From Pocillopora damicornis (Eukaryota): a DNA stretch of 64,000 nucleotides. The notes beneath the pieces are model-generated. The model was given only the letters and a program-made list of their open reading frames with translations, was not told the origin of the DNA and ran no database searches. This document shows, piece after piece, positions 38,092-42,900 of the stretch. A program made the position numbers and the translations under genes. The stretch is taken from assembly GCF_003704095.1 (NCBI RefSeq), contig NW_020847607.1, positions 558,001 to 622,000 of the forward strand. Direction: 5' to 3'. Position 1 is the stretch's first letter. Each line of letters opens with the position of its first letter.

Positions 38092-38618
38092 ATGGCTGTG
38101 TTCAAATGTTTGGGTGCCGGTGTAAACGAGAAGGATTCAACCTTCAAAAAGGCTAACAAGAAAGAACGGCTACCCATTGGGCAAAAGTTTTCTCACGGAG
38201 TGGGCCATATTTACAACGATTTGACTGCTAACGCATGGTTCAGCTATTTAATAATTTTCCTTACCAAGGTCGCAGGGTTGTCAAATTTTTATGCCGGGCT
38301 AGTTATACTCGCCGGTCAAATAACCGATGCGACTTGCACTCCATTCAGCGGATTTTTAAACGATCGCACAGTGAATACTTACGGCCGGCGCAAAACCTGG
38401 CATTTAATTGGGACAGTATGCAGCACGCTCGCCTTCCCTCTTTTATTTAACCGATGTCCCGGTTGCCAGGATAGCAGTGAAGCAGTAAAGCTCACGTACT
38501 ACGTCATCTGTGGTTGTGTTCTTCAATTAGGCTGGGGATGCGTTCAAGTCAGTCATTTGTCGCTGATACCAGAAATATCCAAATCAGCCAGTGAACGAGT
38601 CGAGCTGAATGCCATCAG
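38092..38618 (+). CDS. third MFSD12 first coding exon; probable alternative first exon of paralog B
   Basis: Intact 175-codon ORF homologous to 30043-30542 and 39923-40431, ending ELNAI-AG|gtagg (phase 2, same as the others). I found no copies of exons 2-10 between 38618 and 39923. Confidence 0.8.
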
Positions 38619-39922
38619 GTAGGTGTCCTAATAGCAGAACCACTTTACGAACCACGATTACAGTAGAAATTATCTTTTAAAAAACTCTTCATAGACATTG
38701 CATAACAGGTTTTAAGAATCAACGGCTCAATCAGAAACTAGTTTTGAAAGTAATAAAAAAGTAAATATTGCTAAAACCGTAAGTCAAAACAGGCACATTT
38801 TGAGGGGGAAAATTTTTTTTTGTTTCATTTGCCACAGTATTTACCATATCGTTTTAAAATTTCGTGTACTGCTCTTTGAAAATACACTGTGTTGTCTTTT
38901 ATCTTTTGTCGCTGTTTAAGTTGAATCAAAGTTTACATTTTTTGCTTGCCCTCGTGAATATTTTATTCAAGATAAAAAAATATGTTTTCGTTAGTCTGGC
39001 AGGTACTTGTCGCTACACTCTTGAGATATTTTCCGGAAACGAAACCAAACTCTTGCTGCGCAAAGCGACGTGGTAGATCACGTGGCCAGAAAAATTTTAC
39101 AAAATGTCGAATTATGTTCGTTTCAAAAACAGTATGCAGTTGGATAGTTGTAGACAATTCCAATACGGCTGAAAACGGATAAATTCCTGGTTTCGGGGAC
39201 AAAAATCAAACCAGATTTTTCCCGGATAACATAACTTGCGTGCCAGCCTCGTTAGCACGATGTCCTCTCATTATTATAATCTGCATAGTATTTCGATTTG
39301 CCCCGGCGGTTTCAAATTTTTTTCTGTTTTCCTCTCTCTCTCTCTTTTTTTTTTTTTTTTTTTTTTTTTTTGCGGTCGGAGTTTCCGCAGTCAGTGAACC
39401 ATCGAGAAAGAAGCCTTGTTAAAGTATTTCAAAAGCTGTTCTTGTCTGTTCTTAAAATAATCCAAAATCAATTACAAAAGAGCAAAATATTATCTTGATA
39501 AATGAGCTGTGTTCCAATAAGGACGCCAAAACATGGGACCCTTTTCATTAATCATTAATTTTGGCACCAATATTCTGAAATTCAGTTTTAATGAATCGCA
39601 AACGATTAGTGGTTTGATTTGGAGAATTTAATGTGGTAGGCAGCTTCGCTTTAATAATTACTAACATTGGATTTACAGTAGAAAAATTTGAATGCCCTGT
39701 GTATAGAAAAACTGTACAGTGCTGCTTTATTACGTAACAATTTTACGAACCAAATCGGGTCGCTAGACGATCTTAAACAACTCGTGATTGGATTTCGGAG
39801 ATCCCTGGGGCTCGATTCGGCGTCATTCATTTTTTTTAAAGCAATTTTGGCAAGCTCATATAAGCTCCTGGTAAACTGTCCAAGACAACGTACTTTAGTT
39901 CCCAGTTAGGAGGTCGGTTTCT

Positions 39923-42900
39923 ATGAACGCACTCCGTTGGTTTTCCGGCTTCACGGAAAGAAACACATCCAAGAAAGACAGGCTTTCTTTAACACAGCGA
40001 TTGTGTTACTCTGTTGGTCATGTTTTGAACGATTTGGCAGGTAATGCGTGGTTTAGCTACCTTCTGGTATTTCTTACCAAAGTAGCTGGACTCTCAAACG
40101 CCAGCGCAGGTTTTGTACTACTTTTGAGTCAAGTATTCGAGGGTGTCTGCACGCCTGTTGCTGGGGTATTCTGCGATAAAACAAAGTGCAAATATGGACG
40201 GCGAAAATCATGGCATTTCATTGGAACTGCTTGCGTTACGACATCATTTCCTTTCATTTTCAATCGATGCTTGGGCTGTGCGGAGAGCAGCAATGCTGTG
40301 AAATTTTTATACTATACCGGGTTTTCTATGTTATTTGGGTTTGGTTGGGGATGCACTCAAATTGGACATTTATCACTGATTCCTGAAATCAGCAAACGGG
40401 AGAGCGAAAGAGTTGAGCTTAGTGCGTTCCGGTGAGTGTGCTTTTTTTTTTTTTTTATTATACAGCGCTATCCAAATACTTTGGTTCTCTTTTTGCTAGG
40501 TAGATATATATATATATATATATTTTTTTGGATTCACTCTCAGGTAAACTTTTCTGTGGGGTTTAAAAGCAACTATAGTAATTGTGCAATGATGCTGAAA
40601 GTCGTGATCGTCTAATTCCAACCACAACTGAAGATTTGTTTGACAATGAATTCTTCCTGTTTTCATAAGATAATAATAAAAAAACGGCAAATTCAAAGCT
40701 AGGGACGGAGAGAGCTGACTCAAGATTTAAAATTTCGGAGAGGAAGGAAAAGTCATTTAGGTTTAACATGGCTGGTGTTTCTATTTTTTTTTTCCCTTTT
40801 GGTGAGGAAATTTAGTAAGGGCTTCTGTTAGGAGACTAGGACATATGCTTTGTTTTCCTATATAAGAAAACCTAGATTTGAGGATAACAATTTTGTTTAA
40901 GTTTTGGGTCTGAAATGTTCTCAAGAAGTTCAAATAATTACATGGAGTAGTATTCTGATAAATCAGTAGATCTGGAGGATTTGGTAGTTTGTTAAGTACA
41001 GATTAGGCCGGCCTATAAACAGATCTCCTTCGGTATATCTTGCGATGGAAACATTTGTTAAGTACAGACTAGGCTGGCCTATAAACAGATTGTTCATACC
41101 AAAAGAAAAACATACTTCTATACATCACAGAATAAGACGTCTGGGTGTTTGCGTTCAGTGCCACACCCTCTGGAGGTTTTATCTGTTGACCTCTTGACCC
41201 CTCGTAGCATCTAATTTCTCCCTTCAATCACAAATCAGTCAGCACAGTAAGGTCTCAATGATAAAGGAAATGATCACCAACTAAAGATGCTCTTGATTGT
41301 TAAACAAATTCTCCTTGTCGGTAACTTTGGAAATGTGTAGAGAACAGAATGAAGAATAAGAATATTTATGTTAGGGTGTGAAAGGTAGCGGGTACCCATG
41401 TAGCTACTATAGCCGAGCTCTTTTGGAGTCTTTTCAGTCCCTCGGGCACCATCATGATGTGGGAAAAAGCCTAAGTCCATTGAAGCCATTCTATAGGAGG
41501 TCACAAAACGCGAGTTTGGGGGCGCGTTGTGTGATACCCTAAATAAAAGCTGCGCAAAGGTGGGCGTGCAATAACGGCGCGCTGTTTGTCCGTTCTTTGT
41601 TATCTGCCCGTTCTTTCGCTCGTCTCTACAGACTGAGAGAGGGCCTGGAAGAGGTTAAGCTATTATGGTGTCACTAACAACAATAGTTTCTCGTTACCAG
41701 ATCCGCCCTTACATTTCTTTGTGGTATTTACGTTTATGGAGTCACGTGGATTCTTCTTGGTCAAAGCAAAGAAGAGACACTTTCTCCGAATGTTTGGAAG
41801 CAATTTATGGTGAGTCACATGAGTGCTGTTCAGGTAGCCTTACTTTTTAATTCTTATCTTGTACATTTTTACTCCCAAAGAAACTGTTCCTTTAATATCA
41901 TGTCCATTCAACCAGGAAAACGAAGATTTATTTCTACTGGGGCAACAACCTGGCGGGAAACGCAGTGGCCTGGTGTCATCGGATCTAAACGCACCGGAGG
42001 TCAGATCGATAGGTCTGGATCCGAGGCTGGGCCAATGTGATTTTGAACGAGACACTTTACTCTCACAGTGCCTCACTCGATCCAGGAGTATAAATGGATA
42101 CAGGAGAAACTGCCAGGAAAATCTGACAAAATGTCGGGTTGGGATGGGGGCTGGGGTGGTATAGGGGCAGGGGTTTACCGGTAATGGACTCACATTCTAT
42201 TCAGATGAAAAAGCAATACTCCGACTCTAAGCTCGTAATACTCATTGTTCTTCTTCACAATTGTCATAAATTCATACTTCTCTCATTTAGTATCTTGGTT
42301 TTATCGTCGTGGGAACTGGTACGTTGTTTAATATCATTTTCCACGTCGGAACGAGAGAGCCTCCTTCAGAAGCCTTGCTGGAACGGCAGAAGAAAAATGT
42401 TCAGGGTACCAGTGAGAAAAAAGGTGAATGTTCTGGAAGCCTTAAAAGGCCACGTTTTGCTCCCTCGAGTTTGTATTTAATACTATTTAGATGTATTTAA
42501 GGCGATCTGCTGAGATTCGTTTATAGTACTCATATGAACATTAAATTTTTACGGTAAGTCAAATCATATTTAGACGAGTAGATCGGCTTATCATAGTTTT
42601 CCGAACTTTCAATTTCAGATTAGAGCACACTCTAAATAAGCTATTTAGCACTTAATAGTAATAATTAATTTCAATTATTGATTTATGATTATCAGTAATT
42701 ATTTATAAAGGTTTTATTTTGCACCAGCTCTTCTCAAAGTTGATTGTGATCCTTCTCCTTCGACTCGTCGTTCATCTCAGCGAGTAACCACGTCTGTATG
42801 CGGCAAATCAGAGACAGCATCATCCTCATCTTGCAGTGACGAACTCACTTCCATTGAGTCAACGTTGGTAGAAAAGCAGGCGGAAACTCCGGGTCAATAT

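What the first reader, a model, noticed from the sequence alone, without database searches (positions are those of the whole stretch)
38092..41809. MFSD12 locus has three first exons but two gene bodies: variable N-terminal half spliced to a constant body
Seen: exon-1 homologs at 30043, 38092 and 39923 are all intact and end in phase-2 donors at the homologous Arg codon. Exons 2-10 exist only twice. Both 38092-38618 (AG|gtagg) and 39923-40431 (CG|gtgag) join exon 41701 in frame. The copies are clearly diverged yet stop-free, which suggests purifying selection. Established: tandem variable first exons with shared constant exons occur in UGT1A and clustered protocadherins; MFSD12 imports cysteine into lysosomes and melanosomes. 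Inference: promoter choice swaps most of the N-terminal helical bundle of an MFS transporter and may change substrate or cell type (for example lysosome, pigment organelle or symbiosome).
Basis: partly seen in the sequence, partly recalled or inferred. Interest (0 to 1): 0.7.

Follow-up and report, generated by a model that had tools for sequence, protein, structure and literature searches.

The report
Coral transporter with two front ends
A coral membrane-transporter gene keeps two old, differently built first exons and splices either one onto the same remainder, so one gene makes two carriers that differ in four of twelve membrane helices; this design is known from other gene families.

Summary
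Observation confirmed. A Pocillopora-type MFSD12-like locus holds a complete gene A and a gene B with two in-frame first coding exons (E1b 38092-38618, E1c 39923-40431) and one nine-exon body. E1b splices to exon 2 in 3 of 3 RNA runs laid and not in the DNA-like run. The E1c form equals a RefSeq 'isoform X2' and exists as an intron-free contig from another coral; its junction in this genus is only inferred. Three other genomic contigs show both exons with no body between. Both exons are under purifying selection (dN/dS 0.05-0.14) and encode helices 1-4. E1b is closer to gene A's exon than to E1c (AU p=0.04), so loss of a middle gene's body is likelier than simple exon doubling. E1c changes two positions matching MelB's cation site, while most sugar-site equivalents and the dileucine motif are shared: altered coupling or kinetics is likelier than an organelle swap. 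Cysteine transport and separate promoters are unproven. The architecture is known (UGT1, Pcdh, Gr39a), and this scan noted similar layouts in other transporters on other DNA.

The parts
30043..30542 (+). E1a: first coding exon of complete paralogue gene A (166 codons plus 2 bases)
   Evidence: joint to 31803 in 3 of 3 RNA runs
31803..36301 (+). Body A, exons 2-10: 31803-31911, 32331-32484, 33313-33563, 33655-33747, 34162-34254, 34659-34832, 34944-35047, 35370-35497, 36009-36301; gene A protein 632 aa
   Evidence: all nine introns seen as joints in 3 of 3 RNA runs; 99-100% identical to RefSeq XP_058972892
37801..37890 (+). Conserved non-coding block about 200-290 bases upstream of the E1b ATG (candidate promoter or 5' UTR element)
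   Evidence: 72-74% identical to L003 and L004, E about 1e-8 to 1e-9; function inferred
38092..38618 (+). E1b: distal alternative first coding exon of gene B (N-tail and TM1-4); the form that dominates in the RNA runs laid
   Evidence: Logan protein P0004 = E1b+body B at 622 of 624 residues; joint in 3 of 3 RNA runs; dN/dS 0.056-0.125
39787..39791 (+). ATTGG (inverted CCAAT-like) motif 136 bases upstream of the E1c ATG; weak promoter hint
   Evidence: aligned in 4 of 5 upstream regions; a CCAAT or ATTGG lies 97-136 bases upstream in 5 of 5; a 5-mer like this is common by chance
39923..40431 (+). E1c: proximal alternative first coding exon of gene B (N-tail and TM1-4)
   Evidence: E1c+B identical to RefSeq XP_027059018.1 isoform X2; spliced contig L002 in another coral; dN/dS 0.048-0.135
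40139..40141 (+). Glu73 codon of E1c in TM2, equivalent to MelB Asp55; Asp in 123 of 124 other family rows, Glu in 9 of 9 E1c rows
41701..41809 (+). Shared exon 2 (most of TM5); common acceptor for E1b and E1c
42291..47521 (+). Rest of body B, exons 3-10: 42291-42423, 42728-42978, 43927-44019, 44268-44360, 44770-44943, 45505-45608, 46250-46377, 47259-47521 (TM6-TM12 and C-tail)
   Evidence: introns up to 44268 seen as joints (the stretch laid ended at 44370); protein match to P0004 and P0012
42414..42735 (+). Acidic dileucine-type sorting motif in the central loop, split across the exon 3/4 junction and shared by both isoforms
   Evidence: motif scan; consensus [DE]XXXL[LI] from PMC9398938 passage; function inferred

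Best explanation
Gene B is one MFSD12-like (MFS_2/GPH-fold) carrier gene with two functional alternative first coding exons. A transcript that starts at E1b or at E1c splices from that exon's donor to the single exon 2, giving a 624-aa or a 618-aa 12-helix carrier. The two share TM5-12, the central loop and the C-tail, and differ in the N-tail and TM1-4. SHOWN: the anatomy, E1b splicing here, E1c splicing in a related coral, conservation, purifying selection, the predicted topology. INFERRED: (1) each exon has its own promoter (about 0.75); (2) the layout arose when the middle gene of a three-gene tandem array lost exons 2-10, so that E1c+B is the ancestral gene and E1b+B a chimera of a gene-A-type front end on that body (about 0.55); (3) both isoforms go to the same endolysosome-type compartment and carry a similar small solute, but differ in ion coupling, pH dependence or kinetics and in the cells that express them (about 0.5). 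The substrate is unknown; cysteine is only the lead from vertebrate MFSD12.
For: Anatomy. E1b junction in 3 of 3 RNA runs from three studies, 0 of 1 DNA-like run. Full-length E1b+B proteins in Logan and RefSeq for Pocillopora, Stylophora and Acropora. E1c+B: RefSeq isoform X2 identical to the window model; named models in Orbicella, Desmophyllum and Oculina; intron-free contig L002 starting 91 bases before the E1c ATG with no E1b sequence; X1 contig 6 covers E1c and leaves exactly the 28 letters expected if it runs into exon 2. Order body A - E1b - E1c in L003 and L004, and E1b - E1c - exon 2 in L005. dN/dS at most 0.135 in 15 of 15 computable pairs. E1a, E1b and E1c are separate starred clades; b+c monophyly rejected at p-AU 0.0385. 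TM1-4 lie in exon 1. E1c has Glu at the MelB D55 equivalent and Gly/Ala at the G117 equivalent; the K18, D19, Y120 and W128 equivalents are invariant across the three clades.
Against: The E1c joint is not in the printed joint table (29 joints were not shown). The X9 contig runs from E1b through the body without a break at exon 2. E1c bin depth (18, 3.5, 7.3) is near intron level in X1 and X9. No full-length Logan E1c+B protein was among the 15 listed members of its 63-member cluster. L002 is not labelled as RNA by the tool and could be a processed copy. No start site was mapped: contigs cannot show one. The AU result is marginal and was run after seeing the tree, and the body tree does not resolve which exon was the original partner (p-AU 0.26). 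The MelB mapping rests on low identity (14% in the structure match). Asp to Glu is conservative, the MelB I22 equivalent also differs (Gly vs Ala/Ser), the D124 equivalent is Glu in 2 of 9 E1b rows, and one Acropora gene-A paralogue also has Glu at 73. No transport data exist.
Confidence: 0.78

Rival explanations
1. E1c is an alternative downstream 5' splice site on pre-mRNA started at E1b, or a decaying relic in this genus. Such RNA would encode only a 176-residue E1b stub, and the E1c carrier would not be made here.
For: Low E1c depth close to intron level in X1 and X9; the X1 E1c contig reaches at least 470 bases upstream of the ATG; the joint was not printed. Unspliced E1b stops at codon 177 and 10 ATGs lie between E1b and E1c.
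Against: The window's E1c shows dN/dS 0.090-0.100 against 4 of 4 orthologues, like body B at 0.078; the frame, ATG and donor are kept in every copy long enough to show them; L002 starts just before E1c; RefSeq annotates E1c+B.
Confidence: 0.1
2. Same two-isoform system, but it arose by simple tandem duplication of exon 1 inside gene B, as described for UGT1, and not by loss of a gene body.
For: Simplest route and documented for Ugt1 (PMC1885805 passages). No remnant of a lost body is detectable. The tree covers only 169 columns and E1c has a long stem.
Against: E1b groups with E1a and anemone exons (97/93), not with E1c; b+c rejected at p-AU 0.0385. An anemone gene carries an E1c-like exon on its own full body (P0277).
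Confidence: 0.35
3. The two front ends matter mainly for regulation (two promoters, two cell types or stages); the proteins are functionally equivalent.
For: Most MelB sugar-site equivalents are the same in both; the sorting motif is shared; the upstream elements differ.
Against: 18 positions are fixed for different residues in 9 vs 9 sequences; 12 of 28 TM2 positions share no residue between clades; three E1c changes hit columns conserved in over 90% of the family (G69, D73, Q139).
Confidence: 0.3
4. One reading: the exon choice changes substrate class or target organelle (lysosome, pigment organelle or symbiosome).
For: Exon 1 holds most of the residues equivalent to MelB's substrate and cation sites; the N-tails are unrelated.
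Against: Core pocket equivalents are mostly invariant; the only acidic dileucine motif found is in the shared loop; E1c+B is also annotated in Desmophyllum pertusum, which lacks algal symbionts (my own knowledge).
Confidence: 0.2
5. Assembly artefact: a third gene body was collapsed or lost between E1b and E1c.
For: The window is a scaffold with N gaps; no whole genome was available to check; the listed X19 pieces leave 38986-39593 unbridged.
Against: 3 of 3 other genomic contigs that reach both exons carry them 1.4-1.8 kb apart with no body; E1b splices to body B itself; X19 depth is about 5-8 over E1b, E1c and the non-repeat bins of body B (a weak measure).
Confidence: 0.02

Closest known systems
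Vertebrate UGT1, GCNT2 and clustered protocadherin loci (variable first exons, constant exons; PMC1885805, passages read)
   Same: Large paralogous first coding exons in tandem, same reading frame, each spliced to one set of constant exons; the variable part holds the specificity-bearing N-terminal region.
   Different: Only two variable exons; the product is a 12-helix carrier whose helix bundle is split between variable and constant parts; promoters not shown; the tree favours loss of a gene body over exon duplication.
Drosophila Gr39a, Gr28b, Gr23a, Or46a, Or69a (PMC2204066, passages read)
   Same: Multi-pass membrane protein; each large alternative exon has its own start codon and donor, encodes several helices, joins shared 3' exons and is under purifying selection.
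   Different: In Gr39a six of seven helices are variable, nearly a whole gene; here four of twelve, so one third of a carrier must pack against a fixed two thirds. Receptor, not transporter.
NKCC2/SLC12A1 exons 4B, 4A, 4F (PMC7818487, passages read)
   Same: Duplicated alternative exons change transmembrane residues of a secondary transporter and with them ion affinity and site of expression: the closest functional model.
   Different: One internal mutually exclusive exon (TM2 and a loop) chosen by splicing; here a first exon with four helices, probably chosen by promoter; different fold.
Vertebrate MFSD12, required for lysosomal and melanosomal cysteine import (PMC12435214, abstract and start of the introduction read)
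   Same: MFS_2 family, best-named database relatives, 12 predicted helices, shared TM1, TM2 and TM4 motifs, acidic dileucine motif in the central loop.
   Different: The locus proteins belong to a cnidarian-expanded subfamily; another coral paralogue (clade E) scores higher against 5 of 5 chordate proteins tested. Substrate untested.
RefSeq annotations XP_027059018.1 (Pocillopora damicornis isoform X2) and XP_078376652.1 (Oculina isoform X2)
   Same: They are the E1c+body B form; the first is identical to the window model, so automated annotation already holds this isoform.
   Different: Automated labels only. Other species' records that I saw show one form or the other. I did not retrieve the matching X1 records.

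Membership tests
Variable-first-exon/constant-exon cluster (UGT1/Pcdh type) | Two or more paralogous first coding exons in tandem, same frame, upstream of one set of constant exons | tested here: met
   same in L003, L004, L005
Variable-first-exon/constant-exon cluster (UGT1/Pcdh type) | Each variable exon is spliced separately to the first constant exon | tested here: met
   E1b: 3 of 3 RNA runs. E1c: L002 in another coral and RefSeq X2; in this genus inferred from X1 contig 6 only
Variable-first-exon/constant-exon cluster (UGT1/Pcdh type) | Each variable exon has its own promoter | tested here: inconclusive
   distinct conserved upstream elements, no conserved acceptor before E1c, L002 5' end; contigs cannot show start sites
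Variable-first-exon/constant-exon cluster (UGT1/Pcdh type) | Variable exons arose by exon duplication within the cluster (sister to each other) | tested here: not met
   b+c monophyly rejected, p-AU 0.0385; marginal, so this lowers the shared-origin claim only
Variable-first-exon/constant-exon cluster (UGT1/Pcdh type) | Tissue- or cell-specific choice of variable exon | not testable with these tools
   only bulk contigs available
MFS_2 (GPH-type) carrier | PF13347 match, 12-helix MFS fold, nearest solved structures MelB and MFSD2A | tested here: met
   (fold predicted for the E1c form only)
MFS_2 (GPH-type) carrier | MelB-type Na+ site (D55, N58, D59, T121) | tested here: not met
   equivalents are D/E, C, T, G; the chordate MFSD12 rows also lack D59 and T121, so Na+ coupling as in MelB should not be assumed
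MFSD12 (vertebrate orthologue, cysteine import) | One-to-one orthology to vertebrate MFSD12 | tested here: inconclusive
   the locus genes form a cnidarian clade split from clade E and chordates at 100/100; clade E scores higher; no independent root
MFSD12 (vertebrate orthologue, cysteine import) | Lysosomal or melanosomal location | tested here: inconclusive
   motif only: acidic dileucine in the loop, as in 2 of 3 vertebrate rows scanned
MFSD12 (vertebrate orthologue, cysteine import) | Cysteine import | not testable with these tools
   needs an uptake assay; no MFSD12 structure among the PDB matches

The most novel reading that the evidence does not exclude
An ancient natural helix-swap experiment. 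Before the main stony-coral lineages split, a tandem MFS gene lost its body and its first exon was captured by the next gene. The resulting chimeric carrier (front third from one paralogue, rest from another) became the main isoform, while the original front end was kept with a rebuilt TM2/TM4 ion-site region. Promoter choice would then switch the coupling mode or substrate of one endolysosomal or symbiosome carrier between cell types.
Probability: 0.25. Interest if true: 0.7.

Novelty: new member of a known kind. Interest (0 to 1): 0.47.

Why it matters
The two isoforms differ only in TM1-4 on an identical background, so they form a ready-made pair for asking which helices set substrate and ion coupling in the MFSD12 family, for which no solved structure turned up. 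The locus may also show a second route to UGT1-like variable first exons: loss of a gene body in a tandem array. For coral work, gene-level counts merge two different carriers, and the records I saw list one form or the other by species. It is not a new kind of system.

Tried and rejected
No whole genome is held for this window, so no genome-wide paralogue search was possible. The first AU test (p 0.0325) was set aside because it forced the long-branch anemone row out of the E1c clade; it was repeated with 13 rows left out. The body tree could not place the anemone P0277 body, with 39 rows or with 24. Synonymous sites between the three paralogous first exons are saturated, so no dS dating; one E1b orthologue pair was also saturated. 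No E1c orthologue from Acropora or Montipora appeared among the 120 listed of 144 hits or the 111 hits; exon-only proteins were not searched, so this is not evidence of loss. blastn found no conserved block between the window's E1b-E1c intron and the other loci; only the short motif aligns. Contig depth was not used to rank expression, beyond noting that E1c is low. Only the E1c form was folded. Paper searches for MFSD12+coral (10 of 11 listed), MFSD12+cnidaria, alternative first exon+coral+isoform+transporter and exon duplication+mutually exclusive+transporter+substrate specificity+transmembrane showed no description of this locus; the one coral passage read names MFSD12 only as a down-regulated gene. 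The library lacks most subscription papers, and no supplements were read. Earlier-finding look-ups by sequence and place were empty.
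Full report
Observation. The window holds three intact homologues of the first coding exon of an MFSD12-like gene: E1a 30043-30542, E1b 38092-38618 and E1c 39923-40431. Each ends two bases into an Arg codon before a GT donor. Exons 2-10 occur twice, as body A (31803-36301) and body B (41701-47521), with the same phases and GT-AG introns. 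E1b+B reads 624 aa and E1c+B 618 aa without stops. All three first exons match PF13347 and are 53-60% identical to each other. The E1c+B model is identical to RefSeq XP_027059018.1, labelled Pocillopora damicornis isoform X2, so the window is a Pocillopora coral and this isoform is already in automated annotation.

Is it an assembly artefact? No whole genome was held. A metagenome scan with E1c gave 6 loci from 72 candidate stretches, all 78-83% identical, hence from other corals. The three that reach far enough upstream to include E1b all show E1b and E1c 1.4-1.8 kb apart: L003 and L004 after gene A's body, and L005 followed by exon 2 of body B. No body remnant was found in 7 of 7 inter-exon regions. 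In the DNA-like run X19, listed pieces cover 37543-38985, 39594-41290 and 41294-42132, which leaves one unbridged stretch. A collapsed third body is very unlikely.

Are both junctions used? I laid 4 of 22 listed runs on 29600-44370. The E1b-to-exon-2 joint appears in 3 of 3 RNA runs from three studies and not in X19. The tool prints it as 38619>41702, one base off; a synonymous G at 41701 in those animals explains this, which I infer and did not see in the cut table. A Logan protein matches E1b+B at 622 of 624 residues. The E1c joint is not in the printed table (29 joints hidden). Indirectly, X1 contig 6 covers 39452-40432 and leaves 28 letters, the number expected if it runs on into exon 2. 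Against strong use: the X9 contig passes from E1b into the body unbroken, and E1c depth is near intron level in two runs. In another coral, L002 is an intron-free contig of E1c plus all of body B (620 aa) that begins 91 bases before the ATG and has no E1b sequence; the tool does not label it RNA. Named E1c+B models exist for Orbicella, Desmophyllum and Oculina, and E1b+B models for P. verrucosa, Stylophora and Acropora. E1b looks like the main form in these bulk samples and E1c a minor one.

Selection. Nei-Gojobori dN/dS was 0.056-0.125 for E1b (5 of 6 pairs computable), 0.048-0.135 for E1c (10 of 10) and 0.078 for body B. The pairs are not independent, but all upper bootstrap bounds are under 0.3. 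Both exons are being kept as protein.

Promoters. A block about 200-290 bases upstream of E1b is conserved in L003 and L004. A different short motif, ATTGG, aligns upstream of E1c in 4 of 5 loci, and the L002 5' end maps about 15 bases below it in L003. No splice acceptor is conserved before E1c. These are hints; a 5-mer is common by chance and no start site was mapped.

What is swapped. The AlphaFold2 model of E1c+B (mean pLDDT 79) has twelve long helices. Exon 1 covers TM1-4 and the start of the helix that continues as TM5. The nearest solved structures are MFSD2A and MelB. In MelB the cation site is D55, N58, D59, T121 with the G117 backbone, and the sugar site uses K18, D19, Y120, D124, W128, R149 and C-bundle residues (PMC11259710 and PMC8329300, passages read). 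On the alignment, the K18, D19, Y120 and W128 equivalents are invariant in all three exon clades, and the D124 equivalent is Gln except in the two Acropora E1b rows. E1c differs at the D55 equivalent (Glu in 9 of 9; Asp in 123 of 124 other family rows), at the G117 equivalent (Gly/Ala vs Gln), at the I22 equivalent (Gly vs Ala/Ser) and at nearby G69 and S148. Eighteen positions are fixed differently, and 12 of 28 TM2 positions share no residue. The one acidic dileucine motif found lies in the shared loop (consensus from PMC9398938 passage). I infer the same compartment and a similar solute with different coupling or kinetics, as for NKCC2 exon 4 variants (PMC7818487 passages). The mapping is by remote homology and the family lacks MelB's D59 and T121, so this step is about even odds.

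Substrate. MFSD12 is required for lysosomal cysteine import, and direct transport is not yet shown (PMC12435214, abstract and start of introduction). The locus genes form a cnidarian clade apart from a coral paralogue (clade E) that sits with chordate MFSD12 in the unrooted tree and scores higher against 5 of 5 chordate proteins. Cysteine is a lead, not a finding.

Origin. In exon-1 trees a, b and c are separate starred clades; b includes Acropora, and c branches first, so the split predates the Acropora-Pocillopora divergence. With 13 long or redundant rows left out, b joins a and the anemone exons (97/93), and forcing b+c together is rejected at p-AU 0.0385; the test came after seeing the tree and is marginal. 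An Actinia protein carries an E1c-like exon on its own body, but the body tree cannot place it (p-AU 0.26). Gene order plus tree suggest three tandem genes of which the middle one lost its body, leaving E1b to splice onto the next gene. Simple exon doubling remains a live rival.

Comparison and novelty. The design works like UGT1, GCNT2 and protocadherin clusters (PMC1885805 passages) and, among multi-pass proteins, like Drosophila Gr39a (PMC2204066 passages). It meets the tandem-exon and separate-splicing criteria; promoters are inconclusive and shared origin is weakly not met. Four searches showed no paper on this locus in the library; supplements were not read. Unchecked notes from this scan report similar layouts in an Rh and an SLC16 transporter on other DNA. 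Verdict: real, conserved and functional at the level of selection; a new member of a known architecture, with a possibly unusual origin and a testable four-helix swap. Interest 0.47.

Noticed in passing
P0116 (RefSeq XP_029180111.2, Acropora millepora): A 1063-aa model runs from a gene-A-type paralogue's last exon into exon 2 of body B, skipping the first exon: read-through splicing or an annotation error in the same tandem array.
   Followed up: no
P0011 and P0277 (Actinia tenebrosa): Labelled isoforms X1 and X2 on contigs of the same length with adjacent accessions, yet their longest identical block is 13 residues: two whole paralogues, perhaps sharing a non-coding exon. It may preserve the older multi-gene state.
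   Followed up: partly
window 37251-38620: An X1 RNA contig runs from the region downstream of gene A into E1b: a long 5' leader or read-through from gene A. PolyA-like signals lie at 36930 and 37083.
   Followed up: partly
window 24392-25426 +: A 344-codon open frame with ankyrin repeats followed by a stretch with an HGT motif that resembles an ADP-ribosyltransferase catalytic start (recalled resemblance, no Pfam hit); it seems to continue past the frame end.
   Followed up: partly
window 27078-27935 -: A 285-codon hydrophobic, multi-helix-looking open frame with no Pfam match.
   Followed up: partly
window 15613-17028 - and 61167-62396 -: Exons of a NARG2_C-domain gene and of a cyclic-nucleotide-binding-domain gene.
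   Followed up: partly
window 41261-41319 and 43140-43255: High-copy interspersed repeats inside gene B introns, with depth in the thousands in RNA and DNA-like runs; related copies elsewhere in the window.
   Followed up: no
P0407, P0395, P0434, P0451 and P0294, P0281, P0303: Corals carry at least two further MFSD12-like clades outside this locus; the family is expanded in cnidarians.
   Followed up: partly
P0147 and P0115 (Acropora): Acropora has two gene-A-type paralogues; one independently has Glu at the conserved TM2 Asp position.
   Followed up: no
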